A DNA stretch of 64,000 nt from Nitrospirales bacterium. Lineage in GTDB: Bacteria > Nitrospirota > Nitrospiria > Nitrospirales > UBA8639. Numbering within the stretch: the first letter of the stretch is position 1; every line of letters starts with the position of its first letter. Position numbers and translations under genes: made by a program. This document shows positions 31,801-52,164 of the stretch, piece after piece. The notes under the pieces were generated by a model, which did not search any database, was not told the origin of the DNA, and saw nothing but the letters and a program-made list of their open reading frames with translations. The DNA is taken from the NCBI GenBank assembly GCA_029261295.1, contig JAJDBP010000014.1, forward strand, positions 8,474 through 72,473. Reading direction: 5' to 3'.

Positions 31801-32437
31801 TTATGTCCGGCGGAAGGAAATCCGGAAGCAACCGGGCGATGTACGCTTCAATGTCGGTGGCGTCGGTCCGATTTCCAGCTAGATCAACAACCCCTTGGAT
31901 GAGATCCGCCCCTCGTAGCCCATCTAGGTAGCGGGCAATCAAAAGTCCATCGCTCAACACACGCACGGAACCATTGTCATCCACGTCAAAACGTGTGGGA
32001 TCGGCCGCATCTAAATAGTCCACAATACTAGCGGCATCGTTGCGATTTCCTGCTTGATCTACCACACCCTCGACGAGCGATTGCCCGCGTAGACCAAAGG
32101 CATAGCGTAGAAACAACAACCCATCCTGTGCAGCTATGGCTTCTCCATTGTCATCAAGGTCTAAATTGGCGGCAGGGGGTGGGTCGCCCGCTAACGCGGA
32201 ACTTTCCAGGTGGAGGCTTTGGTTTTCTTGAAGATCCAGGGAGGTTTCTACAACAATGGCAGGAGGAATAAGATCGAGTTCTTCAGCAGGCAAGACATCT
32301 GCGCTGAGGAGGATGCGCGGTTCTAACGGTTCAAAGATTAGGGGATTAGGTCGAGGCTGCTGCCTAGCTCTGAACATTTCCGAACGCATCGCTTGTTTGA
32401 AGTTGGCTTTGGCAAAAAAACGTTCCGCCAGATTCAT
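22814..32437 (-). CDS. Giant (3207 aa) surface adhesin-like protein. Domain order is an LEPRILLSAD N-terminus, 2x dockerin-like, Ig-like/SbsA-Ig, CarboxypepD_reg-like, a Gly-rich hinge with a hydrophobic/helical cassette, TSP3 repeats, an LVIVD beta-propeller, Ig/IPT domains, 5x PPC-like repeats, and IPT.
   Basis: Uninterrupted ORF starting at ATG. The N-terminus is ...NPLIFEPLEPRILLSADV. The dockerin-like pair is LDLDDNGEAIAAQDGLLFLRYAFGLRG and FDVDDNGSVRVLSDGLLIARYLDGLRG. Other landmarks:
- Ig-like: LANDTGQFATDGLTSDPTIIG.
- CarboxypepD_reg-like: VFGYVFDS...IVGATIRVD...VTDENGFFLL.
- TSP3: DTDGDGLVDLAE...DNSDTDDDGISDLSEIQQGLNPLD.
- LVIVD-type: GFHGLAIVDVSQFDNPIVLG and GVHLIDVSNPMFP.
- PPC-like: DVDLFSF...G.YY.GVSG..N..YDP. 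Confidence 0.9.
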   Translation of the reverse strand: MNLAERFFAKANFKQAMRSEMFRARQQPRPNPLIFEPLEPRILLSADVLPAEELDLIPPAIVVETSLDLQENQSLHLESSALAGDPPPAANLDLDDNGEAIAAQDGLLFLRYAFGLRGQSLVEGVVDQAGNRNDAASIVDYLDAADPTRFDVDDNGSVRVLSDGLLIARYLDGLRGADLIQGVVDLAGNRTDATDIEAYIARLLPDFLPPDITATLANDTGQFATDGLTSDPTIIGVVTEMNPLGIFQATLFDAEGMTALDILPLVQSDGSFQLNVVDLEAIKGAPLIEGFHRLQLLAKDEQGNLSDVLETSFILDRIGPILQNAPGGILSETFSAFTLEFNEAVSPEAFAAVSYSVEVSGGPNAGQNIPIISVEQVDVTTAELHLGGELADQDYTFTITGPLFDLAGQPFATPAIVPFTVLDPAAIAETSPLGGEEMVNLTRETIVRFDEAIDPTTITEENVYLIAQGERVPGRLQVSSTERFVTLFYDNALPASTEVRLVVDGDSISGQDGHLLDADGDGVPGGVLTADFRTLPLTRIPGTNVFGYVFDSVNVDAEGNNIPIVGATIRVDAFPEANVVTDENGFFLLQNMPAPEFFVHIDGSTAINAPAGTVYPNVGKPFHSVPGQEIQIEKNLQPFDIFLPPIAQGDIQLLSPTEATQVGFGPGGVAELQEMFPAIDPAMWEVMQVTFEAGSAIDDQGNPATQAAIIPVPPNRLPAPLPPGVVPQLVLSIQAEGATNFDVPAQVTFPNVDGLNPGDSSLIWSFDHDAGNWKVIGAGTVTSDGMAIVSDPGVGILAPGWYLTQPGIQLGGSVGGNAGGGGNEGDPPHDPNDPRPKRQLVNAGSNALNFGLGAFSLGTSIVTSTLGTENSGIGRFAGALTIAIDLVGFIDDPTILGGVSLFFSGIAIFPTPLGLAASLARTGIGIYQMSDALQKVGEELNKAKNLGQEWSLGSGITSELVDGSAFSAAIHEIDFLLNELNVQSEIYLNMETNLSMALAIMELGDPEAPDLGLDVEQQMELQRHLELSIASMQAIEGRIWFVDGLRDLLPLIQAAVDEIMAPFADPVQGAVVAVQVGNLNLQTTTDADGKWRLVVPENEFYTGSVYLPAQNLIGEFSGFSGDSLTLDPNTGFRTVTDSGRSYLAIPDETFLDTDGDGLVDLAEITMGTSLDNSDTDDDGISDLSEIQQGLNPLDDRGFPTGIISRVPLNGPAMDIIVEGSLTDEEQQTAYIATGFHGLAIVDVSQFDNPIVLGQLDLPGAATGVSVDTNLEIAVVASGEGGVHLIDVSNPMFPQLFKTVALIANNVEVADGFVYAAVGDTLVLIDLLTGVVQGQHQYVTGPIDDMAISDGFLYFVSSAHASTHTVSKIELIADPFEIIDQITMDQFQILDSLSIFAGGGLVYLAPVDSANTMPGLEIISDGTNGLELIGEPSDINVFDVVVNGSGIAIFAGLNNPEGADLGVLDVSDPTQTDRFLTSFLILGGIQDIAIGGGIAFVAGNPFGLHVVNYLPFDGLGVAPTISLSHMLDDIDPNTNGIQIFEGAPLALRADVEDDVQARNVEWLVNGEVVRQDVSFPWDFLTSAPIINGASSLTVQARATDTGGNSALSNILSFELVEDTVAPSVVGTFPLADGAVISAASIDLTFNEALDDDQLDVAGVTILNLGADGIVGGGDDLAIDLSDLVLRNRGQLLSVIPQSTLIPGNYLVTIDQSILADLAGNHVTEALTLSFEIGTVDSEAEFGIPLESDLPSANVGQSIELGGGNITLATQVVFPSRDLDGGETTIAVLPSLALNEAEKLQVIVPDEARTGIVTLSGGGGSFPLQIVPVITGINGQPGIAAPFELIGTGFQEGVSTVTIGGLTLVDQFTNDDQIDVAGSLSVVAPLAVEGPIRVTTDGGYFEFPGPTFPGQPVVEFLSLEASADEGLPADPGQPSANTGQSILLHGQGFSNQTLVQFEARDDSGFVGTLTRTGEANGDGTQLSVDVPALAQTGLVRVLGSPIALPLQIVPTLRSVGGAIAPGTQLVLEGTGLSDGNLFLAIDGEVVSVLDVKTIVDSANIFGPGLDQQIVELTVPNNVSNGVITLATSGGSAILRDGVPITMLPDLVLPDDVGDTLATAQNLGLTGNSQVRLRSVVGDTTLGPLDVDLFSFSAQADDALSFAGIPPSTGLTEVRVFNDSGVELFHTTIIGGTGVSSEDEFVAPGSGNYYLGVSGLGNVLYDPTAAGSGSVGSIGIYDVEMTLSRLMEIAPVIASVDVGDTLSTASLVNLPTKNVVTVSAAIGDSVLAGAEVDLFAINLGAGDGLTVELESNFLDSVLRVFDDTGFELAIAQDELDFQAPAAGIYYVGVSGLSNFAYDPTILGSGVEGETGMYALTLIRPELMELPDLVPPVDIGGTTATALVQAVPLNQQIRIDAVIGDNGSGDGDVDLYQVDLSAGDVVFFEVETTGLNPPSSLAPVLRVFDHMGIEVGFGFDFFSAEVPDTATYYVGVSGEGNDVYNPLNGANSVGGSLGAYALMIGRLELTQLPDIFTTVDTGETLGTAMPIALPGNSEVLFSAAVGDGPLGGADVDVLSFSGLAGEIVNVTTLSVRGVPLSLRLFNQAGTELAANGDGLFGSVSVIDDFVVPADGTYFVGISGWPNMTYDPILGGGGSVGDADGYMVLLERMSLSTLPDFVIRMDVGDTLGTAQFIDLPLNHRVTLEGMVGDTIFDGRDVDFFQVTASAGEILSIRVPADGPSFFSARAFDLDGTLLAIVSSGGMNTSMRIPDSGTVFIGVSGTSNSFYDPMLENSGINGDKGLYTVALQLIEEGSLTVTNIIASAVSGIPARPGLSSANVGQVITLEGSGLTSADRIVFTTIDPSGEVQTQMVSPTMVAGEGSRLDVVVPDFAATGMVRLERETVGQFLQVIPTLTDVEQLINGPFHDEPLILTGSGFTEGVLAVHFDDQTLIDSGPMTGPVVSAIFPNANSELFLVVPNGVPTGPIQVMTLGGTSDPFDPVFSGMSAIAESSMAPDLGQTSANAGQMIVLQESETDHDSDVFVPVLDPLKQTVQPVEQLLPTTGDAPEFTMIMPNIEVTGLAGIVGDQSNPGSTTKAVTFGRRNSDASELFIAAELLSETPEVPKSVGSRNDFSTRMALPVMGRKFFDASKNEVPKKSFPSVSIPVTKVVQKKIPHATHVGEEKLVPHSVSLFPSPSLWLQAFLTDHLPLERV
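24010..26140 (-). repeat. Five tandem ~140-aa pre-peptidase-C-terminal (PPC)-like domain repeats within the giant CDS
   Basis: Each unit starts LPD(L/I/F)V..(V/M)D(V/I/T)G(D/E/G)T(L/T).TA. It then contains (D/E)VD(L/V/F)(F/Y/L).(F/I/V) and G(.)Y(Y/F)(L/V)G(V/I)SG...N..YDP, and ends G.Y.(V/L).(L/M). I counted five units by eye in the translation. Confidence 0.75.
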
Positions 32438-35234: not shown

Positions 35235-35706
35235 TTTTGGTCAACGCTCCTTGAGGGAATGAATGTCAATGGAAAATCACCATACCGAGAATGTTGAACA
35301 TTTCCTACCCCTCAAAAGTGACTCTGCTTCCTCAATTCAAAATTGCGTTAACACACGATATTCACGAAGAAGACAACCTATTTCTCAAAGAGTGAACAGA
35401 AATGAATTCTAGGAGTACATCCGAAAGCACATGTAGAATGTGGAAAGAGACAAGGCTGAATGGACATTGCACCTCAAGAAAAACACAGGTCTGTGTAAAG
35501 AGAAGGAAGCGTTAATCGTTTCCTTATTCTCGGATGATCGAGTATTTCCACATTTGCATAGATTGACCACGAGATTATTTTTTTTCTTGACTTCTTTCAT
35601 CATATTTAAGAGCATGGGTTCCAAATCACACCGCACACTACCCTCCTACCCCTAATGACTTGGCTCTTCATGTGCGTATTGAGAGTCAGGAAATAGGGAG
35701 GGCTTC

Positions 35707-37455
35707 ATGTTCTTGTTGAAGAAAACCATACTCGTTTTCCTGCTGTGGCTTTCAGCCTGTGGCCTACCCACCCTGATCTGGGCATTGGATACCGCGCCGT
35801 TTGACGTGGATGGGGATTCCGTCACCAATCCCATGACCGATGCGCAAATGATCATGCGCAAAATGATGGGTCTGGATGGGGCTGCCCTTACCGATGGCGT
35901 CGTGAATCCCGCTGGAACGCGCACCGATCCGGATGAAATCAATACCTTCCTTGAAGCCAATCTATTAAGTCCTGAAGACCACTTAACTATTACCGCAGTG
36001 TTTGTCGACGTGAACAATGGGACGCTCACGATCAAAGGAAAAAATTTTGACATCATCAATGTGCCATTAGAAGTCACACTTGAGGAATTAGGAATATTAA
36101 ATGTCGTAGGAGTATCAACCGCCATTGAGGTCGTTGCCGATTTGCCAGCTGGAATTCTTCCTGGAGACTATGTTCTTACCCTTTCAAAAGGTGAAGCTCT
36201 GAGTCAACAAGACTCATTCGATTTGACGATAGGGCAAGGTGCGCAAGGACCTGAAGGCCCGGAAGGACCACCTGGCCCCGAGGGTCCTCCCGGACCGGCG
36301 GGAACATCCAATCTGATCAATATGCGTTGTCCACCCGGACAGGTCATTTATGGATTTGACCAAATAGGTGGAATTTTATGTGCAGATGCCGCAATCGGTG
36401 CGCCAACGCTTCCACCAATCGCCAACCTTTTACCGGGCGACTTGATCATCACTGAGATTATGGCTAATCCTTCCGGCATCAATGCCGAACGAGAGTGGTT
36501 TGAAATACATAATGTCTCTGGCAAGAATTTTGACCTCAATGGAATGGAAATTCTTATCAATGGCACCAATGCGTTGACCCTGACTTCCGCAGTTTCTCTC
36601 CCTTCAGGAGGCTTTCTCGTCATTGGCCGGAACCAGGACCCTCAGGTGAATGGGGGCCTGGCTGTGGATGTCGTCATAGCGGCCACACTTTCCAATACAG
36701 ATAGTTCGATTGAATTACGGAACGGATCTGCCTTAATCGATCAGGTTACGTATACCACGCCAACCTGGCCTATTATTTCTGGTCGAGCCTTACAATTTTC
36801 TGGCACCACCGCCACTGAAAACGATGATGTGGGTTTTTGGTGCGTGGCCTTTGATGTTTATGGAGACGGGGACTTCGGAACACCTGGTGTCACAAACCCT
36901 ACATGCCCAGATATCTCCATTTCCAACCTCTTACCAGGCGACTTGGTCATCACCGAAATAATGGTCAATCCTTCAGGATCGGATAACGGGCGAGAATGGT
37001 TTGAAATACAGAATGTTTCTGGAAAAAGTTTTGACTTGCAAGGGCTGGAAATTCTCATCAACGACAACAATGCGTTGACCATCCCCTCCTCCGCGTTCAT
37101 TCCTTCAGGAGGATTTCTGGTGTTTGGTCAAAGTCAGGATGTCAACGTCAATGGAGGCCTACTGGTCAATTTCCTCTTCACAGCACCACTACCCAATACA
37201 GGCGGATCGATCGAACTCCTCAACGGATTGATTTCCGTGGATCGTGTGGCCTATTCATCCGGCTGGCCCCTTGTAGTAGGAAGCGCCATGAGTTTCGGTG
37301 GAAACGATGCCACACAAAATGATAATGCGGCCTTTTGGTGCGCGGCAACAATGACATATGGCGATGGAGATTTGGGGACACCCGGCAGTCTCAATCCTCT
37401 TTGCAGTCAATCCCTCCTAAATTCTCAAGAGGGCAAACGAAAAAGATTGCGGTGA
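35707..37455 (+). CDS. Collagen-stalk exported protein, head type A. Domain order is signal peptide, single dockerin-like repeat, IPT-like beta domain, short collagen triple helix, 2x lamin-tail domains (LTD), and a basic tail.
   Basis: 582 aa starting at ATG, preceded by GGGAGG. The dockerin-like repeat is [54 protein letters not shown]. The IPT-like segment is LTITAVFVDVNNGTLTIKGKNF. The collagen tract is [24 protein letters not shown]. The LTD motifs are LPGDLIITEIMANPSGINAEREWFEIHNVSGKNFDLNGMEI and LPGDLVITEIMVNPSGSDNGREWFEIQNVSGKSFDLQGLEI. The protein ends EGKRKRLR. Confidence 0.85.
   Translation: MFLLKKTILVFLLWLSACGLPTLIWALDTAPFDVDGDSVTNPMTDAQMIMRKMMGLDGAALTDGVVNPAGTRTDPDEINTFLEANLLSPEDHLTITAVFVDVNNGTLTIKGKNFDIINVPLEVTLEELGILNVVGVSTAIEVVADLPAGILPGDYVLTLSKGEALSQQDSFDLTIGQGAQGPEGPEGPPGPEGPPGPAGTSNLINMRCPPGQVIYGFDQIGGILCADAAIGAPTLPPIANLLPGDLIITEIMANPSGINAEREWFEIHNVSGKNFDLNGMEILINGTNALTLTSAVSLPSGGFLVIGRNQDPQVNGGLAVDVVIAATLSNTDSSIELRNGSALIDQVTYTTPTWPIISGRALQFSGTTATENDDVGFWCVAFDVYGDGDFGTPGVTNPTCPDISISNLLPGDLVITEIMVNPSGSDNGREWFEIQNVSGKSFDLQGLEILINDNNALTIPSSAFIPSGGFLVFGQSQDVNVNGGLLVNFLFTAPLPNTGGSIELLNGLISVDRVAYSSGWPLVVGSAMSFGGNDATQNDNAAFWCAATMTYGDGDLGTPGSLNPLCSQSLLNSQEGKRKRLR
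36232..36303 (+). repeat. Collagen-like G-X-Y tract (8 triplets)
   Basis: The sequence ggg caa ggt gcg caa gga cct gaa ggc ccg gaa gga cca cct ggc ccc gag ggt cct ccc gga ccg gcg gga translates to [24 protein letters not shown]. Confidence 0.9.
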
Positions 37456-37567
37456 GTTTAATCGTATCGAAAAACTCCATGACGTCACATCAAGCCTCAT
37501 TGTCCAGGCTTCCACATGTCGACCAACAAGGCTTGGACCAAAATAAATTAAGAAAGGCAAAACACCC

Positions 37568-38698
37568 ATGAAAGGCAATTATCTGTTGAGCAGACTTTTA
37601 TACCTATGGCTTTTGCTTTTACCCATCCCCTCCTTGACCTGGGCGCTGGATACGGCGCTCTTTGACGTCGATGGGGATTCGGTTGCCAATCCCATGACCG
37701 ATGGGAATCTGATCATGCGAAAAATGTTAGGGCTAGAAGGAACCGCCCTCACCGATGGCGTGGTGAATCCTGCCGGTTTACGTACCGAAGAGGATGAAAT
37801 TAATGCCTTTTTGGAAGCCAGCATGTTGGCCCCGGCGGATCACTTAACGATTACCGAAGTGTTGGTGGACCTAGAGGCAGGAACGCTAACCATCACCGGC
37901 CAAAATTTCCCCATGGGAACCGACCCGATTGTCTTGCTCGGAAATGATACCGTCCCTCTCGGTCTAAGCGGTGTCCCAATGGAAATGGAAATTATTGCAT
38001 TTTTACCGACGCCGGTCATCAATGGGGACTACCTGCTGACCGTTTCGAAAGGTGACGCCCCATCCGAGCGAGATTCATACAACATTACGATTGGTCAAAG
38101 TCCACCTGGCCCCGAAGGGCCAGAAGGTCCTCAGGGGCCGCAAGGATTTCCCGGGGTCCAAGGACTACAAGGACCGGAAGGAGCACAAGGACCTCCAGGC
38201 CCAGCCGCAGATGGCTCCGTACCAATTGACGAATCAGATGCACCTACCGAAGAAATGATTTTTATGAATATTGATGATGGTGCAATTAAGGGAAACGCAA
38301 TCACTTCCGGATATGAAGAGCAAATCGTGGTGGGCTATGTCATGTATGGTGTCGCTCAGGCTGGAGAATGGGAAGAGGGAGAACAAATCACCGGAAGAAT
38401 CACCACCTTTGGCGAATTTCAGATTGTAAAAAATGTCCAAATTGGGAACGGGACTCCAGAATTATTATTCGCCTCCGCAAATAAAACCCAATTCGACAAA
38501 GTTGAGATTAACTTTGTGACGGGAAATGATGCCTATGCGACCATTTCTCTTGAAAAAGTTATCATTACAAGTGACACCGTAAAATTTGATCAGGAATTTA
38601 CCTTGCCAATTGAAATTGTCAGCCTATCGTATCGGAAAGCCACCTGGCGTGTTGGAACAGCAACCACTTCCTATAATCTTGAGGCCGCTACCGACTAA
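37568..38698 (+). CDS. Collagen-stalk exported protein, head type B. It has the same N-terminal module as 35707..37455, a longer collagen helix, and a C-terminal Hcp-like (T6SS tube-protein-fold-like) domain.
   Basis: 376 aa with the signal peptide LLYLWLLLLPIPSLTWA. The dockerin-like repeat is [53 protein letters not shown]. The IPT-like segment is LTITEVLVDLEAGTLTITGQNF. The collagen tract is GPEGPEGPQGPQGFPGVQGLQGPEGAQGPPG. The C-terminal domain is IFMNIDDGAIKGNAITSGYEEQIVVGYVMYGVAQ...GRITTFGEFQIVKNVQIGNGTPELLFASANKTQFDKVEINFV...ISLEKVIITS...PIEIVSLSYRKATWRV. It follows the Hcp1 pattern I.G......H...I.V.s.s.g..q ... dl.f.K..D..sP.L ... v.l.f ... L..v.i.s ... E.v.L.y.k. Confidence 0.7.
   Translation: MKGNYLLSRLLYLWLLLLPIPSLTWALDTALFDVDGDSVANPMTDGNLIMRKMLGLEGTALTDGVVNPAGLRTEEDEINAFLEASMLAPADHLTITEVLVDLEAGTLTITGQNFPMGTDPIVLLGNDTVPLGLSGVPMEMEIIAFLPTPVINGDYLLTVSKGDAPSERDSYNITIGQSPPGPEGPEGPQGPQGFPGVQGLQGPEGAQGPPGPAADGSVPIDESDAPTEEMIFMNIDDGAIKGNAITSGYEEQIVVGYVMYGVAQAGEWEEGEQITGRITTFGEFQIVKNVQIGNGTPELLFASANKTQFDKVEINFVTGNDAYATISLEKVIITSDTVKFDQEFTLPIEIVSLSYRKATWRVGTATTSYNLEAATD
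38108..38200 (+). repeat. Collagen-like G-X-Y tract (about 10 triplets)
   Basis: Translates to GPEGPEGPQGPQGFPGVQGLQGPEGAQGPPG. Confidence 0.9.
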
Positions 38699-38775
38699 GG
38701 GGAAACAATCAAAAATTCCTATAACCACCATCCCTGTTAAGCCTAAACATCTCTCTCACACAAAAAGGACCGCAT

Positions 38776-39444
38776 ATGAAACATACATTTATTCAACAGG
38801 TCATCATCAGCACTTTGCTGTTTTGGAGTGGATTGTATCCCTCGTTTGCCGCCCCATCACCACAAAATATCTTGATAAATATTGGAGAGGGTGCCATTCC
38901 TGGAAATGCAACCGTACCAGGATATGAAAATCAAATCGTCGCCCAAAACTTCTCTTTTGCTGTCTCTCAACTTGGCGAATGGGAAGAGGGAGAACAAATC
39001 ACCGGGAGAGTGACCATTTTTTCGGACTTCACCTTTAGCAAAGAGCTGGACGGTGGAAGCCCAGCTCTTGCTCATGCATCAGCGTTAAAAACGCAATATA
39101 ATAACGCTGTTCTCACCTTTCTCGATACGACGGGAGAACCAATTATCACCGTCACCTTAGAAAAAGTCATTGTCACTAGTGTGGGAATAAAAATGAAACC
39201 AGGTGCAACGAGACCTCTTGAAGTCGTAACATTATCCCATCGCAAGGATACTTGGGAGAGTGGTCAGTCATCTACTTCCTATGACCTTGAAGCGGCATCC
39301 GCGCTAACCGGTGAAATCAGTTCCGCATTAACCGCTCCTACCGGGAGTTCCGCCTTGCTGGATTCCACCACCGAAACCAGCTCCACCGATTCGAACCCTC
39401 TCAGGCAACCTAACAAACGAACCAAAAGAACGAGGACACGATGA
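38776..39444 (+). CDS. Sec-signal-bearing stand-alone Hcp-like domain protein with an S/T-rich linker and a polybasic C-terminal tail
   Basis: 222 aa with the signal peptide VIISTLLFWSGLYPSFA. The domain is ILINIGEGAIPGNATVPGYENQIVAQNFSFAVSQLGEWEEGEQITGRVTIFSDFTFSKELDGGSPALAHASALKTQYNNAVLTFLD...VTLEKVIVTS...PLEVVTLSHRKDTWES. It is paralogous to the C-domain of 37568..38698 and shares GEWEEGEQITGR. The tail is TSSTDSNPLRQPNKRTKRTRTR. Confidence 0.7.
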   Translation: MKHTFIQQVIISTLLFWSGLYPSFAAPSPQNILINIGEGAIPGNATVPGYENQIVAQNFSFAVSQLGEWEEGEQITGRVTIFSDFTFSKELDGGSPALAHASALKTQYNNAVLTFLDTTGEPIITVTLEKVIVTSVGIKMKPGATRPLEVVTLSHRKDTWESGQSSTSYDLEAASALTGEISSALTAPTGSSALLDSTTETSSTDSNPLRQPNKRTKRTRTR

Positions 39445-40950: not shown

Positions 40951-43119
40951 CTATCGTAGCGAACGCTTCCTTTCCCTTTTCTGTCGTTTAGCATGCCCTT
41001 TTTTCTTTCCACGCTGAGTTGGAGGATCTTGAATTTCCGGCTCAGACGTGATGGTAAGCTCTAAACTGTCAGTCAGCGCGGAATCCGGGGATGCAAGATC
41101 TACGGAGGTGCTCACCGCCTCACTCGTGCCGGCCGTTGTCAGCCGACTTCCGGTCGACTCAGCCCCAGGCAGAAACCCACTCAGAAATGCCACAATTGCG
41201 GAGGCCGTGGTCCGCGTCGCACCCACCCCCAGCCCATTGGCCAAGACACTGTCGCTCGTGATGCCAAACAAAAACGCGGTGATAATCTTGCAATCAAACG
41301 TATCTGCCGTGCCATTCCCATCGGCATCCAGCATGCCCAGCGGCTCCACCCCCAGGAGATACGTCATAATCAGTTGCGGGTCGGTGCGCCCGCCGGTAGA
41401 GTCCACCACCCCGGCTGCCACATCCGCTGGATCGGTAATCGCCGGATCCAGATACCGGCAGATCATCGAGCCATCCCACACATTGGTTTCGCTATTAATA
41501 TCAATATCAAAAGTCATCCGTTGGAATGTTTGTTGGGAAACGGGATGAATGGGGTTCAAGGCGAGGTCAAGAACATTGTTTACGGTCAGGGTGTAGCTCA
41601 CTCCTTCAGCAAGAGGAGTTGTGGCAAGAAGGACCGTCACGCCATCAGATTGAAGAGCTGCCTGAAGGATGGATATTCCAGGATCTATAGAGAAGTTACT
41701 GGCGGTCTCAGCACTGCCTCTCTCCAATGGTTCGCTAAAAGTCACGGACACGAGGGTTGGATTACCGGCAGCCATCACATCCAAGATCGTTGGCCCAGAA
41801 ACATCTGATCCTGTGGGAACCAATTTCAGCACTTCCCCTGTTTGCCGCCCGATATACAGCTCTCTGTCTTCATCCTCGCCCCAGGTGATATCGCGTTGGG
41901 GAATAAGCTGCGCACCCGTCGGTTCGATAGCAATCAATTCCAGCTCCCCCGTATTGATATCCATCGCCACCAATTCGGCTGCCACAAAATCAAAGAAAAT
42001 ATATTTACCAAATAATGGTGGCAGCGCTGACCCTCGATACACAAAGCCGCCTATCACAGACCCGAACGCCTTGGTGGTACCATTGTGATCATATTCCGCT
42101 AACGGTGGGGTGAACGCTGGATTAGGTGAAGGATCAACTGTCGCATTCCCACTCACTGGGTCCCAAAGAAAACTCCCCTCCTTCAGATTCCATCCATAGT
42201 TTTTTCCCAACTCTAGGCGCAAAATGGATTCAATCGTGAAATCTCCATTCGTGCCCGTGTACATATCTCCCGTCAGACGATCAGAGGAAATACGCCAAGG
42301 ATTACGAACACCCCAAGCAAATATTTCCGGCACATTTCCGCCTGCTCCATCCGCGAAAGGATTATCAAACGGAATCGTATAACGACCATTGGGTCCAATA
42401 GTATCGACATCGATGCGGAGAATACTTCCATAAGGATTCGTCGTTTGTTGGCCAGTCGTGTGATGAGGAGTCGGCGTGCCAAATGGCGTCGCGCCGCCAT
42501 CGCCAAATGACACATACAAATAACCATCACCGCCAAACGCCAAATCATTCATATTATGTCCGCCGTTAGGCTGGTGCACACGCAGCAATTCTCGTTGAGA
42601 ATCTTGGTCAAACTGGTCAGGATTTGTCGCGTCGACTTGAAATTCAAACAACACGTTATCAAATGCAGAAGACGTATCATCTTGGGGAGGGCTGTAGTCT
42701 GGCGTAGCCCCGTTTGGAACGGCTTCGCCGGAAATCACGTAGAGTTTGCCATTAGTGGCGTAATCTGGATGAAAGGCCATGCCCGACATCGCAAACCCTG
42801 AAGGGGCTGCTGGAATATTCAGGAAGGGTGAGGGACGCAGTGCGCCGTCTTTGAATATACGAATGATCCCGTTTGGCGAGACAAGAAAAAGTCGTCCGCT
42901 CCCATCCCCTGCATTCGTAATATCGAATACCGCACTGGGGTTAACGGACACCACCTGTTCCAATTTGATGGTGTGAGGTCCAAGCGGAATATCGGGCAGT
43001 AGATTGTTTCCATCCCCGACCGCTCTGGCTGACACCGGAGCCAGGCTCACTATCAAGCCAATAACAACCAGCAAGAATTTCAGGGATGAGGTATAGAATG
43101 GCATAGCTATCTTCTTCAA
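40951..43119 (-). CDS. Exported PQQ-dependent sugar dehydrogenase-like beta-propeller with an SbsA-Ig-like domain, a dockerin-like pair and a polybasic tail
   Basis: 722 aa. GSDH landmarks are GDGSGRLFLVSPNGIIRIFKDG, MSGMAFHPDYATNGKLYV, HNMNDLAFGGDGYLYVSFGDGG, YGSILRIDVD, YTIPFDNPF, EIFAWGVRNPWRISSDRLTGDMY and KNYGWN. The Ig-like segment is TLVSVTFSEPLERGSAETASNFSI. The dockerin-like pair is FDIDINSETNVWDGSMICRYL and LDADGNGTADTFDCKIITAFLFGI. The protein ends QRGKKKGHAKRQKRERKRSLR. The start is TTG 43119 or ATG 43104. Confidence 0.85.
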   Translation of the reverse strand: MKKIAMPFYTSSLKFLLVVIGLIVSLAPVSARAVGDGNNLLPDIPLGPHTIKLEQVVSVNPSAVFDITNAGDGSGRLFLVSPNGIIRIFKDGALRPSPFLNIPAAPSGFAMSGMAFHPDYATNGKLYVISGEAVPNGATPDYSPPQDDTSSAFDNVLFEFQVDATNPDQFDQDSQRELLRVHQPNGGHNMNDLAFGGDGYLYVSFGDGGATPFGTPTPHHTTGQQTTNPYGSILRIDVDTIGPNGRYTIPFDNPFADGAGGNVPEIFAWGVRNPWRISSDRLTGDMYTGTNGDFTIESILRLELGKNYGWNLKEGSFLWDPVSGNATVDPSPNPAFTPPLAEYDHNGTTKAFGSVIGGFVYRGSALPPLFGKYIFFDFVAAELVAMDINTGELELIAIEPTGAQLIPQRDITWGEDEDRELYIGRQTGEVLKLVPTGSDVSGPTILDVMAAGNPTLVSVTFSEPLERGSAETASNFSIDPGISILQAALQSDGVTVLLATTPLAEGVSYTLTVNNVLDLALNPIHPVSQQTFQRMTFDIDINSETNVWDGSMICRYLDPAITDPADVAAGVVDSTGGRTDPQLIMTYLLGVEPLGMLDADGNGTADTFDCKIITAFLFGITSDSVLANGLGVGATRTTASAIVAFLSGFLPGAESTGSRLTTAGTSEAVSTSVDLASPDSALTDSLELTITSEPEIQDPPTQRGKKKGHAKRQKRERKRSLR
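41165..41517 (-). repeat. Copy A of a ~350-bp near-duplicated C-terminal dockerin-like module (partner at 43440..43785)
   Basis: The protein segment FDIDINSETNVWDGSMICRYLDPAITDPADVAAGVVDSTGGRTDPQLIMTYL...GMLDADGNGTADTFDCKIITAFLFGITSDSVLANGLGVGATRTTASAIVAFLSGFLPG matches the neighbouring gene. There are long identical DNA runs, for example aatcttgcaatcaaa and gtgccattcccatcggcatccagcatgcc versus gtgccattgccatcggcatcaagcatgcc. Confidence 0.8.
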
Positions 43120-43214: not shown

Positions 43215-44363
43215 TTAACGGCGTCTCGTTTGTGTTCGCTTGCTTCGTTTATGACGACTCTTCTTCTTTGCACTCGACGGCTTCGTGACCTTTACTGGCT
43301 CGATCGTCTGGCTGATTAGAGGCTGCTCCAGCACAATCGAAGCTGTCGTTTCCGACGTAAGGGCGGAAGCCAGCGATTGAACATTCGAGGGAGTTGAGAC
43401 GGTCACTGCTTCCGGCGTACTCACCGCCCCACCCATGCCTGGCAGAAAATCCCTGAGAAAAGCCAGTAACGCATCAGCCGTTGTGCGAGTGGCACCCGAT
43501 CCCAGCCCATTGGCAAATAAACTATCACTCGTGATGCCAAACAAAAATGCCGTAATAATCTTGCAATCAAAATGATCCGATGTGCCATTGCCATCGGCAT
43601 CAAGCATGCCCCGCGCCTCTGCCACCGACAAGTATTCGGTAATTTTTTTGGGGTCCGGACGGCCGCCAGAAGGATCGACGAGCCCTGCTCCTACTTGTTC
43701 CGAATCCGTGATGGCAGGGTCCAGATATCGACAAATCATGGACCCATCCCACACATTCCCCTCGCCATTTAAATCAAGATCCCAGGATAGCACCAAGGGC
43801 CGCCATGCTGTTTCCACGCCATAGCTAATAGACCCGGATTGGTTTCGAAAACTGATCCAGCCCGTGTTCTCACTCCAAGCCCGACCATTAAAATCTCCGG
43901 TGGCGGGATCAATGGTCACCCCATAGTTTTTTGTCGAGCAAGCGTTGGTATTGCTGCAGGAAAAACTAATCCAACCGACGTTTTCACTCCAGGCATAACC
44001 AGCAAGATTTCCTGCCCCATCATTGGTTACGCGATAGTCCCGAGATAGACACGTGCGATTATTCAAACACGACAAACTCACCCAACCCGTGTTCTCGGAC
44101 CAGAGATAGCCGGACACCCCATCATCTTCCACAAACATGCCCGGGCCGCCATCGCCGCCCGGTTCGGCATTCAGCCAACCGGTGTTTTCACTCCAGGCAT
44201 ATTGCGCCCCACTATCATCCGGATCAATATTGTCACTGGCCAGCGCCAGAGAACCTGACAGGCCCAGTACCAAAACTGCACTAAGCACCACCTGAATCCC
44301 ACATTGTTTTGAATGAGTCATGATGCCCTCCGTCTTATCAAACGATTTTTGTTCACTCCACAT
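43215..44363 (-). CDS. Exported protein with 4x W-S-E-N-x-G-W repeats, a dockerin-like pair and a polybasic tail
   Basis: 382-aa ORF. The probable start is ATG 44321, preceded by ACGGAGGG. The signal peptide is VVLSAVLVLGLSGSLALA. The repeats are YAWSENTGWLNA, YLWSENTGWVSLSC, YAWSENVGWISFSC and RAWSENTGWISF. The dockerin-like pair is WDLDLNGEGNVWDGSMICRYL and LDADGNGTSDHFDCKIITAFLFGI. The protein ends SSAKKKSRHKRSKRTQTRRR. Confidence 0.8.
   Translation of the reverse strand: MWSEQKSFDKTEGIMTHSKQCGIQVVLSAVLVLGLSGSLALASDNIDPDDSGAQYAWSENTGWLNAEPGGDGGPGMFVEDDGVSGYLWSENTGWVSLSCLNNRTCLSRDYRVTNDGAGNLAGYAWSENVGWISFSCSNTNACSTKNYGVTIDPATGDFNGRAWSENTGWISFRNQSGSISYGVETAWRPLVLSWDLDLNGEGNVWDGSMICRYLDPAITDSEQVGAGLVDPSGGRPDPKKITEYLSVAEARGMLDADGNGTSDHFDCKIITAFLFGITSDSLFANGLGSGATRTTADALLAFLRDFLPGMGGAVSTPEAVTVSTPSNVQSLASALTSETTASIVLEQPLISQTIEPVKVTKPSSAKKKSRHKRSKRTQTRRR
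43440..43785 (-). repeat. Copy B of the near-duplicated C-terminal dockerin-like module (partner at 41165..41517)
   Basis: See copy A. By eye the two copies are about 75-85% identical at the protein level over ~115 aa, whereas the N-terminal parts of the two genes are unrelated. Confidence 0.8.
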
Positions 44364-44989: not shown

Positions 44990-45079
44990 GTCTCCTTTCT
45001 TTTTTTATGACGAGAAGGATTTTCTCCACACTCACGTCCCTCACGCCTCACGTTTGCCCCACCACTCCTTACGGCTTGT

Positions 45080-45760: not shown

Positions 45761-45829
45761 GATTCCCTCTGATTAGGTAAAAAATTTATTGTTCCTGCCA
45801 CACGCGACCTGCTTCCCAATATTTGGACT

Positions 45830-46516: not shown

Positions 46517-46548
46517 GATTCAACACCCCGTGGTTAGTAAAAAAATGA

Positions 46549-47208: not shown

Positions 47209-47220
47209 ACGTATCGACGT

Positions 47221-47880: not shown

Positions 47881-47910
47881 GATTGCTCCATCGGCCTAAG
47901 ATTACTCACC

Positions 47911-48546: not shown

Positions 48547-48624
48547 AATGCCCTCATATAAATAATAAAAAAAAGACTAATTCTTTTACATCCTGCCATC
48601 TCACCGGACATGCTCACTCCATGG

Positions 48625-49908: not shown

Positions 49909-52164
49909 TTGACTTATTTCATGGCTTTAATAAGGATAGGGGCAGTTGGGGGCACGAATGCTTGGGGCTTTTTGCTCCCCCATCAGGAGACCCGGGATGG
50001 ATACCGTTCCGGGTCTGCCATTTCAAAACGAAATGCCTCATGGTTTCCCATCCCCTCATCAACACCAAGGAGCCACGACATGCTTGTCACACCCAGCCTA
50101 TGCCGTACCCCACGATCTTCTGTTTTCATTCTGATGGGACTCATCTGTTTGCTGCTCACCACCTCACTGGCTTTCGCCAAAAAACCCACGACGGCCACGA
50201 ATGATATTGACGGCGATCGAGTGGTGAATCCCATGACCGATGCGCAAATCATTTCGCGGCATGCGATGGGTCTACGCGGCCAAGCCATGGTAGACGGGGT
50301 GGTCAACCCGGCAGGTACGCGCACCGATCCACAAGAAATTGAAGCTTATCTGGATGCCAATGCCGTGGCTCCTGATGAGTTCCTGACAATTTCGGAAGTG
50401 CTGGTGGATCTGGTTAATAAAACCTTGACGATTACTGGCCGCAATTTTCTGTCGGTCACCGACGCTGAAGTGACACTCGGCACGGATGCCGTGCCCCTGA
50501 GCCTGGCAACCGTACCAACAGATACCGAGATTGTGGCGAACCTTCCGGCAGGACTCGCGGATGGCGATTATTTATTAGCGATGTCTACAGGGGAAGCCCC
50601 CAGTCAGAATGACAGTTATTCCCTCACTATTGGCGAAGGTCCAGTCGGACCGGAAGGTCCTCCCGGCCCCGAAGGGCCACAAGGGATTCAAGGTGGACCG
50701 GGACCGCAAGGTCCAATTGGGCCACAGGGGCCCGAAGGCCCCTTAAACCCTAACGTCTTAACGGAAAGTAATAACACCGCCGTGGGATTCAATACCTTGT
50801 CCAGCAACACGACGGGTAGTTCCAACACCGCGTTCGGAGCAGAGGCCTTGAGTGCGAATACAACGGGTGATGACAACACCGCCCTGGGAAGAAATGCCTT
50901 AGTCGCCAATACCATGGGGACACTCAACACGGCCGTGGGGTCCTCAGCCTTGCGCAAAAACACCACGGGCGGTAACAACACCGCTGTGGGAACCTTCGCC
51001 TTAGGAGTCAATACTACGGCGTTAAACAATACCGCTGTGGGAAAAGAGGCTTTAGGTGCCAACACAACCGGCGGTAACAACACAGCTGTGGGATCTGTTG
51101 CTTTGCGTAACAATACCACCGCCTTTAGCAACACCGCTCTGGGAACCGCGGCCATGAACCTTAACACGACGGGCAGTAACAACACTGCCATTGGAGCATT
51201 TACTTTACTCCTTAATACTTTAGGGGATAGCAACACCGCTCTGGGAACCGCGACCATGAACCTTAACACGACAGGCAGTAGTAATACTGCCATAGGAACA
51301 AGTGCCTTAGCCGCCAACACCACGGGGAATCAGAACCTCGCTGCGGGATCCTCTGCCTTACGCACCAACACCACGGGTGATAGCAACACCGCCATGGGAG
51401 ATCAAGCCCTGCTTTTCAACACCACAGGTCGTATCAACACTGCCGTGGGAGATTCCGCCTTGAGCAGCAACACGACAGGGATCGACAATATTGCGGTTGG
51501 AATTAGTGCCGGAACAAATCAAACGACAGGAAGTCACAATATCTACCTTGGAAATTTTGGCGTTGCCGAAGAGTCAGGACACATGCGTCTTGGTCAACCT
51601 GGCTTCCAATTCCAAACATTTATGGCTGGCATTCGGGGAGTGACAACTGGCGTCAATAATGCAGTTTCGGTCATGATTGATTCCGCTGGACAACTTGGGA
51701 CGGTTTCCTCTTCTCGTCGATACAAAGAAGACATTCAGGATATGGCCGAGGTAAGTGCGCGGATACTCCAATTGCGACCAGTCACGTTTCGCTATAAAAA
51801 GGCCTTTACTAATGAAATAAAGCCCATCCAGTATGGCTTAATCGCTGAAGAGGTGGCGGAGGTCTATCCCGATTTGGTGGTCTATAACGCGAAAGGCCAC
51901 GTCGAAACGGTGCAATATTATAAATTGATCCCACTCATGCTGCATGCCGTGCAACAACAAGAGACACAGTTGCAAGAGGAACACGACACCAATCGCCACC
52001 TGCTCTCGCAACTCCAAGAACAAGCAGAAGAACTGCAAGATCTCCGTTCAGCACTCACATTCGTACAGAAGCAGAATCGCCAACTGCAAGATCTGAGGGC
52101 GCGCCTTGTCAAATTGGAATCGCAACTCGAAACTCGTTCATTCCTGCAAGCGCAATTGCCCTAA
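49909..52164 (+). CDS. Collagen-stalk exported protein, head type C. It has the same N-terminal module, a collagen helix, about 19 copies of a 14-residue tail-fibre/YadA-head-like beta-helix repeat, a peptidase S74 intramolecular-chaperone auto-processing domain, and a coiled coil.
   Basis: The ORF is open from TTG 49909. The probable start is ATG 50080 (AAGGAG at 50066-50071), giving [33 protein letters not shown]. Landmarks:
- Dockerin-like repeat: [53 protein letters not shown].
- IPT-like segment: [22 protein letters not shown].
- Collagen tract: [36 protein letters not shown].
- Head repeats: NTA(V/L/I)G..AL..NTTG...
- S74 motif: [12 protein letters not shown]...LRPVTFRYK...[19 protein letters not shown]...[11 protein letters not shown]. 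Confidence 0.85.
50632..50739 (+). repeat. Collagen-like G-X-Y tract (about 12 triplets)
   Basis: Translates to [36 protein letters not shown]. Confidence 0.9.
50770..51555 (+). repeat. About 19 tandem copies of a 42-bp (14-aa) repeat encoding NTA-x-G-x2-AL-x2-NTTG-x2
   Basis: The translation reads [74 protein letters not shown] and so on. The antisense 211-aa ORF 50688..51323 is a shadow of this periodicity. Confidence 0.9.

What the first reader, a model, noticed from the sequence alone, without database searches (positions are those of the whole stretch)
35707..39444. Collagen triple helix used as a universal adaptor: one N-terminal module, three interchangeable heads
Three proteins share a colinear N-terminal architecture: 35707..37455, 37568..38698 and, 10 kb away, 50080..52164. 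The architecture is a signal peptide, a single dockerin-like repeat (F/I)D(V/I)DGD(S/R)V.NPMTD....(M/S)R(K/H).MGL.G.A(L/M).[10 protein letters not shown]...EI..(F/Y)L(E/D)A, an IPT-like domain (LTI(T/S).V.VD...(G/K)TLTI.G.NF ... GDY(V/L)L..S.G(E/D)A.S..DS(F/Y)..TIG), and then a G-X-Y collagen tract that always starts GPEGP.

Immediately after the collagen tract the three sequences become unrelated. The heads are two lamin-tail domains, an Hcp-like domain, and a 14-residue-repeat beta-helix with an S74 chaperone. This looks like cassette exchange at the collagen junction, yielding trimeric stalks that display different heads. Lcl of Legionella is collagen plus DUF1566. Here the DUF1566 domains are encoded separately, in the adjacent 7-gene array.
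Basis: partly seen in the sequence, partly recalled or inferred. Interest (0 to 1): 0.8.

Follow-up and report, generated by a model that had tools for sequence, protein, structure and literature searches.

The report
Collagen-stalk surface proteins with swappable heads
Three secreted proteins of an uncultured bacterium share one N-terminal base and a short collagen stalk but carry unrelated tips, and they belong to a large, undescribed bacterial family built on the same known "lollipop" plan as Legionella Lcl or animal collectins.

Summary
Genes A (35707-37455), B (37568-38698) and C (50080-52164) share a signal peptide, a 56-aa DxDGD module, an IPT/Ig domain and 8-12 Gly-X-Y triplets. They are 53-58% identical there (BLASTP 1e-57 and 8e-45), and similarity stops at the end of the triplets. 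The heads are two lamin-tail domains, an Hcp-like domain, and a phage-type repeat region with an S74 chaperone.

Corrections:
- The repeat in C has a 17-residue period, not 14.
- The "dockerin-like" unit fails Pfam and fold tests for dockerin.
- Gene A has an 18-residue Cys hairpin after the collagen that other family members also carry.

The genes are old paralogues: synonymous sites are saturated, and there are no inverted repeats or silent cassettes. This is evolutionary domain shuffling, not active switching.

The core (signal peptide, IPT, collagen, variable head) is widespread. It occurs in 28 loci in MAGs of several phyla, and 52 members carry about 30 head types, including Lcl_C, C-type lectin, phage collar and PKD. 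Some pairs are 90% identical in IPT yet have unrelated heads.

The 56-aa module occurs 19 times in 11 secreted proteins of this window and probably acts as a shared anchor. Trimer formation is inferred, not shown. The design principle is already known; the family is new.

The parts
35707..37455 (+). Gene A, 582 aa: signal peptide, 56-aa module, IPT, 8 Gly-X-Y triplets, Cys hairpin, two LTD domains, basic tail
   Evidence: ORF; Pfam LTD 3.7e-24 with 2 stretches; N-module aligned
35707..35784 (+). A: predicted Sec signal peptide (aa 1-26, ...LIWA|LD)
   Evidence: Read from the sequence; the cleavage-site region is conserved with B. No signal-peptide predictor was available, so this is an inference.
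35794..35961 (+). A: single 56-aa DxDGD-loop, three-helix module (aa 30-85)
   Evidence: Local HMM iE 9.5e-28; AF2 helices at 16-27, 32-36 and 49-59 of the model, pLDDT >90
35968..36234 (+). A: IPT/Ig-like beta-sandwich (aa 88-176), ending ...FDLTIG
   Evidence: IPT profile E 1.6e-33; AF2 seven-strand sandwich; Foldseek hits to IPT/TIG, plexin, MET and EBF1
36238..36309 (+). A: 8 uninterrupted Gly-X-Y triplets (aa 178-201)
   Evidence: Pfam Collagen sub-threshold, 15.5 bits
36328..36381 (+). A: 18-aa Cys-bounded hairpin CPPGQVIYGFDQIGGILC (aa 208-225)
   Evidence: Same motif 4-8 residues after the collagen tract in P0002, P0068, P0125, P0134 and L017
36436..36756 (+). A: lamin-tail domain 1 (aa 244-350)
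   Evidence: Pfam PF00932, best stretch 244-350
36937..37257 (+). A: lamin-tail domain 2 (about aa 411-517)
   Evidence: Pfam reports 2 stretches; internal DNA repeat 36422-36721 / 36923-37222 at 71% (family D4)
37435..37452 (+). A: basic C-terminal tail KRKRLR
37568..38698 (+). Gene B, 376 aa: signal peptide, 56-aa module (37652-37822), IPT (37826-38095), 11 Gly-X-Y triplets, Hcp-like head
   Evidence: The identical protein is in public collections from a 73,021-bp contig.
38108..38206 (+). B: 11 Gly-X-Y triplets (aa 181-213)
38261..38650 (+). B: Hcp-like head (aa 232-361)
   Evidence: Pfam T6SS_HCP 7.4e-17, 62.3 bits vs cut-off 23.5; TIGR03344 below cut-off
38776..39444 (+). Gene D, 222 aa: signal peptide, free-standing Hcp-like domain, Ser/Thr-rich linker, basic tail; likely same transcription unit as A and B
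   Evidence: Pfam T6SS_HCP 4.5e-20; 48% identical to B's head, E 2e-43; tail NKRTKRTRTR
50080..52164 (+). Gene C, 694 aa: signal peptide (50080-50178), 56-aa module (50191-50361), IPT (50362-50634), 12 Gly-X-Y triplets, 17-aa repeats, S74 chaperone
   Evidence: Pfam TIG 24.5 bits, above the 20.9 cut-off
50638..50745 (+). C: 12 Gly-X-Y triplets (aa 187-222)
50773..51537 (+). C: about 15 copies of a 17-aa repeat NTAxGxxALxxNTTGxx (aa 232-486)
   Evidence: 51-nt spacing (families D1 and D3); self-identity 0.54 at lags 17 and 34; PHROG virion structural protein 1.8e-63 and tail spike 7.9e-47
51709..52161 (+). C: C-terminal intramolecular chaperone (Peptidase_S74, aa 544-600) plus helical tail to aa 694
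   Evidence: Pfam PF13884 9.9e-14, 51.8 bits vs cut-off 22
2854..3198 (+). Tandem pair of the 56-aa module near the C-terminus of the 909-aa secreted protein 619-3348
3878..4222 (-). Tandem pair of the module in the 1959-aa PKD/REJ/Calx-beta protein 3371-9250
20989..21345 (-). Tandem pair of the module in the GSDH-like protein 20806-22617
31829..32170 (-). Tandem pair of the module near the N-terminus of the 3207-aa protein 22814-32437
41173..41520 (-). Tandem pair of the module (divergent) in the GSDH/Big_5 protein 40951-43119
43446..43784 (-). Tandem pair of the module (divergent) in protein 43215-44363
54567..54914 (-). Tandem pair of the module at the C-terminus of the M36 fungalysin-like peptidase 54558-57587
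   Evidence: AF2 model pLDDT 88.8
58480..58839 (+). Tandem pair of the module near the N-terminus of the ORF that starts at 58180 and runs off the window end

Best explanation
A, B and C are Sec-exported, probably homotrimeric 'lollipop' surface proteins of a Gram-negative, PEP-CTERM-bearing uncultured bacterium.

Each chain has a base and a tip. The base is a 56-aa Ca-loop/three-helix module followed by an IPT Ig-like domain whose last strand runs straight into a Gly-X-Y tract. Three chains are proposed to wind the 8-12 triplets into a short collagen triple helix of roughly 7-10 nm. That stalk holds a C-terminal head away from the base. The heads are two lamin-tail domains (A), an Hcp-like barrel (B), or a phage-fibre-type repeat region folded by a self-cleaving S74 chaperone (C).

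The 56-aa module is shared with at least eight other secreted enzymes and giant adhesin-like proteins in the same island, where it occurs in tandem pairs. It most likely docks all of them onto a common cell-surface or matrix partner. On that reading the N-terminus is the anchored end, as in Lcl and BclA, and the heads are the distal binding ends.

The three genes arose by old duplication and domain shuffling within a widespread family (signal peptide, IPT, collagen, variable head). The 56-aa module was added in this lineage.

Shown: the architecture, the homology, the break in similarity, the family distribution, the head diversity and the age of the paralogues. Inferred: export, trimerisation, orientation, the anchoring role and binding functions.
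For: - Shared N-module with an abrupt loss of similarity after Gly-X-Y.
- Strict glycine every third residue, without interruption, in A, B and C and in runs of 11-162 triplets in relatives. Pfam Collagen matches 46 of 52 family members.
- The IPT-to-collagen junction is conserved (...YDLTIGAVGPxGPxG), with the G of TIG in register with the repeat in most members.
- AF2 model of the N-module has pLDDT 93.5: three helices plus an Ig sandwich. Foldseek gives IPT/TIG-type hits. Pfam TIG is above threshold in C.
- C's head matches phage tail-spike/virion structural families and carries the S74 chaperone. From published work (my knowledge: Schwarzer 2007, Schulz 2010) this chaperone drives trimeric beta-helix folding.
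- The module occurs 19 times in 11 secreted proteins of the window. It sits N-terminally in some and C-terminally in others, which argues for a binding module rather than a secretion signal.
- dS is saturated and dN/dS is low in IPT and collagen, so these are old paralogues under purifying selection.
- Family breadth and head turnover.
- Precedent: Lcl is signal sequence + N-terminal anchor + collagen-like region + trimeric head, seen as lollipops by EM (PMC11162425). Collagen tracts as short as 27 aa occur in EHEC prophage EPcl proteins (PMC3368898).
Against: - No oligomer prediction or experiment was possible.
- Eight to twelve triplets without hydroxyproline are marginal for a stable helix unless a flanking domain trimerises.
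- Lamin-tail domains are not known to trimerise, and Hcp forms hexamers, which mismatches a trimeric stalk.
- The partner of the 56-aa module is unknown. Its fold matched nothing in the PDB, so the anchoring role rests on distribution alone.
- A also has a basic C-terminal tail that could be an alternative attachment point.
- The signal peptides were judged by eye only.
Confidence: 0.6

Rival explanations
1. The Gly-X-Y tract is only a proline/glycine-rich flexible linker. The proteins are monomeric multidomain secreted proteins, and the shared N-terminus is ordinary paralogy.
For: The tracts are short at 8-12 triplets, and Pfam Collagen scores are below the gathering threshold. The heads of A and B are not known trimerisers.
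Against: A linker does not require glycine at every third position. The register is unbroken in all three genes and over 11-162 triplets in relatives. The junction to IPT is conserved in phase. C carries a dedicated trimer-folding chaperone.
Confidence: 0.15
2. The genes, C above all, are phage tail-fibre or prophage-remnant genes rather than cellular surface proteins.
For: C's repeat region and chaperone match phage virion structural and tail-spike families at 1.8e-63 and 7.9e-47. The Gly-X-Y tracts hit tail-fibre PHROGs. Collar and S74 heads occur elsewhere in the family.
Against: All three have N-terminal signal-peptide-like sequences, which virion proteins lack. No phage genes flank them: the neighbours are a DUF1566 array, a Macro-domain gene and an oxidoreductase. 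The IPT profile found nothing in 2.9 million viral contigs. The N-module is shared with non-phage heads.
Confidence: 0.08
3. The locus is an active head-switching system, such as a shufflon, phase variation or gene conversion from silent cassettes, with recombination at the Gly-X-Y-coding repeats.
For: Gly-X-Y-coding DNA is repetitive (family D6). A free Hcp-like gene lies directly after B. A and B show lower dS (about 0.9) in the 56-aa module, which suggests some conversion.
Against: There are no inverted repeats in 33-53 kb and no inter-gene repeat above 74% identity. Third-codon identity in the collagen tracts is 0.13-0.33. D is a complete gene with its own signal peptide, not a silent cassette. 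No recombinase lies next to the genes.
Confidence: 0.03
4. The orientation is reversed. The heads or C-terminal tails attach to the cell, and the N-terminal 56-aa module plus IPT is the distal ligand-binding end, as in streptococcal Scl proteins.
For: A ends in a basic KRKRLR tail. In Scl1/2 the N-terminal variable domain is both distal and the trimerisation nucleus (PMC8968730).
Against: B has no tail. C's C-terminus is a chaperone that is expected to be cleaved off. A conserved base with variable tips fits better with variable distal binding ends. The module is shared with enzymes, for which an anchoring role is the more natural reading.
Confidence: 0.12

Closest known systems
Legionella pneumophila Lcl (collagen-like adhesin; NF046116; PMC11162425)
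   Same: Signal sequence, then an N-terminal element proposed to attach to the cell surface, then a collagen-like region, then a C-terminal globular head. Secreted by a Gram-negative bacterium. One family member found here (L004) even carries an Lcl_C head.
   Different: Lcl's N-terminal element is a 30-residue amphipathic helix, not a 56-aa module plus IPT. Its collagen region is long, with 15-residue super-repeats. Its head is DUF1566. A, B and C score far below the Lcl model (25.6 bits vs cut-off 500). In this window DUF1566 proteins are separate genes.
EHEC prophage collagen-like proteins EPclA-D (PMC3368898)
   Same: A conserved N-terminal domain (PfN) and a collagen tract, followed by alternative, unrelated C-terminal domains. 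Collagen tracts can be as short as 27 aa. They were shown experimentally to be trimers.
   Different: They are phage side-tail-fibre proteins without signal peptides and lie inside prophages. PfN and PfC are unrelated to IPT or to the heads found here.
Animal defence collagens (collectins MBL/SP-A/SP-D, ficolins, C1q family) - from general knowledge
   Same: A short N-terminal region, a collagen stalk of about 15-60 triplets, and interchangeable globular recognition heads. One bacterial family member found here has a C-type lectin head.
   Different: They are eukaryotic, hydroxylated and assemble into higher oligomers through N-terminal cysteines. There is no homology of the N-terminal parts. 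This is analogy only.
Bacillus BclA / streptococcal Scl1-Scl2 (PMC8968730)
   Same: Bacterial surface filaments built from a collagen triple helix with a flanking trimerisation domain and a globular end.
   Different: They are Gram-positive and anchored to the exosporium or by LPXTG. They have no IPT domain, and head diversity within one family is much lower.
Endosialidase-type tail spikes and fibres with a C-terminal intramolecular chaperone (Pfam PF13884)
   Same: The head of C: a repeat region followed by the S74 chaperone with the typical ...[10 protein letters not shown] site.
   Different: In C it is fused behind a signal peptide, the 56-aa module, IPT and collagen, and it lies in a non-phage context.

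Membership tests
Bacterial collagen-like proteins (Pfam PF01391 Collagen) | Uninterrupted (Gly-X-Y)n tract | tested here: met
   8, 11 and 12 triplets without a break. Pfam scores of 15.5-20.3 bits are below the 27.2 cut-off because the tracts are short. 46 of 52 relatives match at E<1e-3.
Bacterial collagen-like proteins (Pfam PF01391 Collagen) | Formation of a trimeric triple helix, nucleated by a flanking trimerisation domain | not testable with these tools
   Only monomer structure prediction was available. C has a trimer-folding S74 chaperone. A and B have no known trimeriser.
IPT/TIG domain (Pfam PF01833) | Profile match above the gathering score and an Ig-like E-set beta-sandwich | tested here: met
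   C scores 24.5 bits vs cut-off 20.9. 17 of 52 relatives match. The AF2 model (pLDDT 93.5) is a seven-strand sandwich with Foldseek hits to an IPT/TIG protein (8co1), plexin, MET and EBF1, at weak E-values of 3e-3 to 5e-2. A and B themselves are below Pfam reporting but align to C at 47-58%.
Type I dockerin (Pfam PF00404) | Profile match: two 22-residue Ca-binding loop-helix segments | tested here: not met
   No hit at E<=0.1 in A, B or C and none at E<=1 for the isolated module. Relatives give only sub-threshold hits to the DxDGD loop (14.5-17 bits vs 22.9). One of 113 homologues has a precomputed PF00404 hit.
Type I dockerin (Pfam PF00404) | Dockerin fold | tested here: not met
   The AF2 model of a tandem pair (pLDDT 88.8) has no PDB match better than E=1.9, and no dockerin appears in the list. 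Foldseek is weak on small helical domains, so this is not a strong exclusion.
Type I dockerin (Pfam PF00404) | Cognate cohesin partner | not tested
   No cohesin-like gene was looked for beyond the Pfam scans of the large ORFs in the window, and none was seen there.
Lcl adhesin (NCBIfam NF046116) | Equivalog score and a C-terminal DUF1566 head on the collagen chain | tested here: not met
   B scores 25.6 bits vs cut-off 500, from the Gly-X-Y tract only. The heads of A, B and C are LTD, Hcp and S74, not Lcl_C.
T6SS tube protein Hcp/TssD (PF05638, TIGR03344) | Hcp domain profile match | tested here: met
   B 62.3 bits and D 72.7 bits vs cut-off 23.5.
T6SS tube protein Hcp/TssD (PF05638, TIGR03344) | TssD subfamily score, no signal peptide, T6SS gene context | tested here: not met
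   TIGR03344 gives 30-31 bits vs cut-off 58.9. Both proteins have signal-peptide-like N-termini, and no T6SS genes were found among the window's ORFs.
Endosialidase-type intramolecular chaperone (PF13884 Peptidase_S74) | Profile match at the C-terminus after a repeat/beta-helix region | tested here: met
   51.8 bits vs cut-off 22 at aa 544-600 of C. The preceding repeats match phage tail-spike PHROGs.
Endosialidase-type intramolecular chaperone (PF13884 Peptidase_S74) | Autoproteolytic release at the conserved serine | not testable with these tools
   The sequence ...[13 protein letters not shown] is present. Cleavage needs an experiment.
Lamin tail domain (PF00932) | Profile match | tested here: met
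   85.6 bits vs cut-off 34.3, two stretches in A.

The most novel reading that the evidence does not exclude
The IPT-collagen unit may be a dedicated bacterial stalk cassette. The IPT domain would nucleate and set the register of the triple helix, and the Gly-X-Y-coding DNA would serve as an in-frame, recombination-tolerant joint. Many phyla could then swap recognition heads (lectin, DUF1566, Hcp, phage-fibre tips) onto one base, giving a prokaryotic counterpart of the collectin/C1q system. In this lineage the base would additionally plug, through a previously undescribed 56-aa Ca-loop module, into a cohesin-dockerin-like surface scaffold shared by enzymes and giant adhesins.
Probability: 0.25. 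Interest if true: 0.75.

Novelty: new variant of a known kind. Interest (0 to 1): 0.5.

Why it matters
Bacterial collagen-like proteins are known mainly from a few pathogens and their phages. This work points to a broad environmental family with one fixed base and dozens of heads. It spans Nitrospirales, Nitrospinaceae, Gammaproteobacteria, Desulfobacterota, Acidobacteriota and Planctomycetota, and it has no Pfam or NCBIfam model and no literature that I could find.

If the stalk trimerises, the IPT-collagen junction would be a new natural trimerisation and registration unit for short, hydroxyproline-free collagen, which is useful for recombinant collagen design. The family would also be a catalogue of trimer-presented binding heads.

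The 56-aa module is abundant in metagenomes (the combined module-plus-IPT profile gave 4090 representative hits at E<=0.001). It is unnamed and has a confident predicted fold with no PDB match. It may mark a surface-anchoring system of uncultured bacteria.

None of this changes the known principle that collagen stalks display heads, so the advance is in breadth and parts rather than in concept.

Tried and rejected
- The word-indexed protein search with A residues 1-180 found nothing, not even B. That tool was insensitive here, and the exhaustive profile search was needed.
- A genome-collection scan with the full N-module found no relative. A narrower 6-sequence alignment worked.
- Exact look-ups of A and B found no contig. 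C gave only an 8.6-kb duplicate of this locus. The nearest relatives of the IPT part are in Nitrospirales and other MAGs.
- The metagenome scan with the N-module gave one locus with the 56-aa module only. The viral scan gave nothing.
- Promoter and terminator scans were not above shuffled expectation, so they say nothing about operon structure.
- Local HMMs for Lcl_C, Hcp and the 56-aa module found no such genes within 8 kb of the IPT-collagen genes in other genomes. The adjacency to the DUF1566 array is not conserved. (The local Lcl_C model was insensitive and missed the L004 head that Pfam detects.)
- Foldseek of the N-module against viral structures gave only generic Ig/IPT hits.
- Literature searches for IPT plus bacterial collagen found no description. 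A search linking collagen repeats to Nitrospira or sponge symbionts was uninformative.
- The lipoprotein reading of A (LSAC at residues 15-18) was considered and set aside. B and C lack it, and the ...WA|LD site is conserved between A and B.

Full report
**1. What is in the sequence**

Three ORFs on the + strand were examined: A = 35707-37455 (582 aa), B = 37568-38698 (376 aa) and C. For C the longest ORF starts at a TTG at 49909. The ATG at 50080 gives a typical signal peptide, and an independent gene call on a second public contig gives the same 694-aa product.

- BLASTP gives A/B 56% identity over 189 aa (E=1e-57) and A/C 53% over 171 aa (E=8e-45).
- The mature N-modules (A and B aa 27-177, C aa 34-186) are 53-58% identical with 65 invariant columns.
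- In 15-codon windows, amino-acid identity stays at 0.5-0.87 through the module and the first Gly-X-Y triplets. It then drops to 0.07-0.2 in all three pairs.
- The Gly-X-Y runs are 8 (A, aa 178-201), 11 (B, aa 181-213) and 12 (C, aa 187-222) uninterrupted triplets. GPEGP lies within the first three triplets of each.

**2. The heads**

Pfam confirms two lamin-tail domains in A (3.7e-24), an Hcp domain in B (7.4e-17), and a Peptidase_S74 intramolecular chaperone in C (9.9e-14).

- Gene D (38776-39444), just downstream of B, is a free-standing Hcp-like protein with its own signal peptide. It is 48% identical to B's head.
- The repeat in C has a period of 17 residues (51 nt), not 14. Direct-repeat families are spaced at 51 nt, and self-identity is 0.54 at lags 17 and 34.
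- There are about 15 units of NTAxGxxALxxNTTGxx. This region matches phage virion structural and tail-spike PHROGs at 1.8e-63 and 7.9e-47.
- A is not joined directly to its LTDs. Six residues after the collagen tract lies an 18-residue Cys-bounded hairpin, CPPGQVIYGFDQIGGILC. The same hairpin sits 4-8 residues after the collagen tract in five other family members.

**3. The N-module is two separable units**

A profile of the three N-modules was searched exhaustively against 1.84 billion representative proteins. It gave 4090 hits at E<=1e-3 and 846 at E<=1e-10.

- Only two representatives carry the whole module: B itself, and P0002, a 645-aa protein with a different, Cys-rich repeat head.
- All other hits match either profile positions 5-58 or positions 62-150.

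*(a) The IPT domain (positions 62-150).*
- Pfam TIG is above threshold in C (24.5 vs 20.9 bits).
- The AlphaFold2 model of A's module has pLDDT 93.5: three short helices followed by a seven-strand sandwich.
- Foldseek finds IPT/TIG-type Ig domains (8co1 IPT/TIG protein, plexin, MET, EBF1) with high probability but weak E-values.

- It has no Pfam hit in A, B or C at E<=0.1 and none as an isolated fragment at E<=1.
- Relatives give only sub-threshold Dockerin_1 matches to the DxDGD loop.
- 113 homologues found with a pair profile are all unnamed or 'hypothetical', essentially without Pfam annotation of this region.
- An AF2 model of a tandem pair (pLDDT 88.8) has no PDB match better than E=1.9, and no dockerin is listed.
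- I therefore treat it as an unnamed 56-aa Ca-loop/three-helix module that resembles dockerin only in its DxDGD loop.

**4. The module marks an island of secreted proteins**

An iterated local HMM finds 19 copies in the 64-kb window.

- Single copies occur in A, B and C.
- Tandem pairs occur in eight other proteins with signal-peptide-like or Planctomycete-type N-termini:
  - 619-3348
  - 3371-9250 (PKD/REJ/Calx-beta)
  - 20806-22617 (GSDH-like)
  - 22814-32437 (3207 aa; Big_5/PPC)
  - 40951-43119 (GSDH/Big_5)
  - 43215-44363
  - 54558-57587 (M36 fungalysin-like peptidase)
  - the ORF starting at 58180

- The pair sits near the N-terminus in some proteins and near the C-terminus in others. That argues against a secretion signal and for a shared binding or anchoring module. 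This is an inference.
- None of the IPT-collagen proteins retrieved from other genomes has the module. Its fusion to the stalk is therefore lineage-specific.

**5. The wider family**

The IPT-type hits have the same plan. A signal peptide is followed by an IPT domain ending ...(D/E)YDLTIG. The G of TIG usually opens the Gly-X-Y register (...TIGAVGPxGPxG). An unrelated C-terminal region follows.

- A genome scan found 28 loci, all in metagenome-assembled genomes. They come from Nitrospirales, Nitrospinaceae, Gammaproteobacteria including Methylococcaceae and Lysobacterales, Desulfobacterota, Thermoanaerobaculia/Acidobacteriota, Planctomycetota and others. Gly-X-Y runs range from 11 to 162 triplets.
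- Among 52 members, Pfam finds Collagen in 46 and TIG in 17. Heads include phage Collar (2), Hcp (2), S74 (2), PKD, MopE, C-type lectin, Lcl_C, RCC1 and YadA-head repeats. Most heads have no Pfam match.
- BLASTP groups the 52 heads into 30 clusters.
- Head turnover is fast relative to the base. P0102/P0125 and P0052/P0054 are 90% identical in IPT with unrelated heads. P0049/P0086, L011/L017 and L005/P0023 are about 80% identical in IPT with unrelated heads.
- In those closest pairs identity ends right at the start of the Gly-X-Y run or about six triplets into it, not at its end. Either the exchanged unit is collagen plus head, or the repeats diverge quickly.
- The same head type also occurs on distant bases. 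C's repeat/S74 type appears in a Nitrospirales and a Planctomycetota MAG, and B's Hcp type appears in P0014.
- The IPT profile found nothing in the viral contig collection.

**6. Age and mechanism of the three window genes**

- Nei-Gojobori estimates show saturated synonymous divergence in the IPT and collagen segments for every pair. pS is 0.75-0.86 and pN is 0.24-0.36.
- Only the 56-aa module of A/B is younger (dS about 0.9). This matches the single notable DNA repeat, 281 nt at 74%, and may reflect local gene conversion between the adjacent genes.
- There are no inverted repeats in 33-53 kb and no silent cassettes.
- The genes are therefore old paralogues kept by purifying selection. 'Cassette exchange' describes evolutionary history, not an active switch.

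**7. How it most likely works**

By analogy with Lcl, I propose the following (PMC11162425: signal sequence, N-terminal surface-binding helix, collagen-like region, trimeric head, lollipops by EM).

- The proteins are exported by Sec.
- Three chains associate.
- The Gly-X-Y tract forms a short triple helix of about 7-10 nm.
- The N-terminal 56-aa module, three copies per trimer, attaches the base to a partner shared with the other module-bearing proteins.
- The head is the distal functional end.

In C, folding is probably driven from the C-terminus by the S74 chaperone, which then cleaves itself off. That is established for phage spikes, and I cite it from my own knowledge. In A and B no known trimeriser is present. 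The phase-conserved IPT-collagen junction, and in A the Cys hairpin, are candidates. Short tracts have a precedent: 27-aa collagen domains occur in EHEC prophage proteins whose longer relatives are proven trimers (PMC3368898). Trimerisation, orientation, anchoring and ligand binding are all inferences.

**8. Comparison with what is known**

- The design (conserved base, collagen stalk, alternative heads) is established for Lcl, Scl1/2, BclA (PMC8968730), the EHEC prophage EPclA-D proteins (PMC3368898) and the animal collectins, ficolins and C1q.
- A, B and C are not members of the Lcl equivalog (25.6 vs 500 bits), not dockerins, and not T6SS TssD. For TssD they fall below the subfamily cut-off, have signal peptides and lack T6SS context.
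- They do contain bona fide IPT, LTD, Hcp-fold and S74 domains.
- I found no description of an IPT-collagen family. The 2022 review of prokaryotic collagen-like proteins does not mention IPT, and no NCBIfam model covers A or C.

**9. Verdict**

The new elements are:
- the breadth and head diversity of the IPT-collagen family;
- its conserved junction;
- the unnamed 56-aa module that ties these stalk proteins to a whole island of secreted proteins.

Interest is moderate (0.5). Novelty: a new variant of a known kind.

Noticed in passing
window 2854-3198, 3878-4222, 20989-21345, 31829-32170, 41173-41520, 43446-43784, 54567-54914, 58480-58839 (plus single copies in A, B, C): A 56-aa DxDGD-loop/three-helix module occurs 19 times in 11 secreted proteins of this 64-kb window, mostly as tandem pairs at either end of the protein. 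It is abundant in metagenomes, has no Pfam model and no PDB fold match, and may be a shared docking module.
   Followed up: partly
C-termini of ORFs 619-3348, 20806-22617, 35707-37455, 38776-39444, 40951-43119, 43215-44363: Six secreted proteins end in a strongly basic Lys/Arg tail (for example KKKSRHKRSKRTQTRRR or KKKGHAKRQKRERKRSLR), often after a Ser/Thr-rich linker and without a hydrophobic helix. This differs from the PEP-CTERM type of sorting signal. It may bind an anionic surface polymer.
   Followed up: no
window 44399-49290, minus strand: Seven tandem Lcl_C/DUF1566 genes. Each has a signal peptide, a conserved N-terminal peptide (...GNLEPPGSAVNGSGxPxATTQTQPSWDQ...) and a conserved C-terminal WCVRGGG motif. 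The same array is on a second public contig. No such array lies next to IPT-collagen genes in other genomes.
   Followed up: partly
window 43215-44363, minus strand (aa ~55-190): Four to five repeats of a motif (Y/R)AWSENxGW(I/L/V)(S/N) spaced about 35-45 residues apart, upstream of the module pair. No Pfam or NCBIfam match.
   Followed up: no
window 35794-35961 vs 37652-37822: The 56-aa module of the adjacent genes A and B has much lower synonymous divergence (dS about 0.9; third-codon identity up to 0.8) than the rest of the shared region, which is saturated. This suggests local gene conversion.
   Followed up: partly
window 10402-11064, 33155-33949, 34467-35234, minus strand: Three PEP-CTERM-type C-termini (PEPST...), one of them on a matrixin (M10) metalloprotease. 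This implies an exosortase system in the organism.
   Followed up: no
window 22814-32437, minus strand (N-terminus): The 3207-aa protein starts with the ...EPLEPRILLS motif typical of the 'Planctomycete extracellular' signal, directly followed by the module pair. This is a hint to taxonomy or to a secretion route.
   Followed up: no
window 39586-40815, minus strand: A 409-aa cytoplasmic-looking protein with a C-terminal Macro domain (1.3e-7) and an unassigned N-terminal half lies convergent with the A-B-D gene group. It may be unrelated to them.
   Followed up: no
window 50688-51323 (-), 35652-36125 (-), 36348-36623 (-), 37579-37824 (-): Long antisense ORFs overlap A, B and C. They appear to be by-products of the repeat and Gly/Pro-rich coding sequence, and there is no evidence that they are genes.
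   Followed up: no
related proteins P0102/P0125, P0052/P0054 (not in the window): These pairs are 90% identical through the signal peptide and IPT but have different collagen tracts and unrelated heads. They are the best candidates for recent head replacement.
   Followed up: partly
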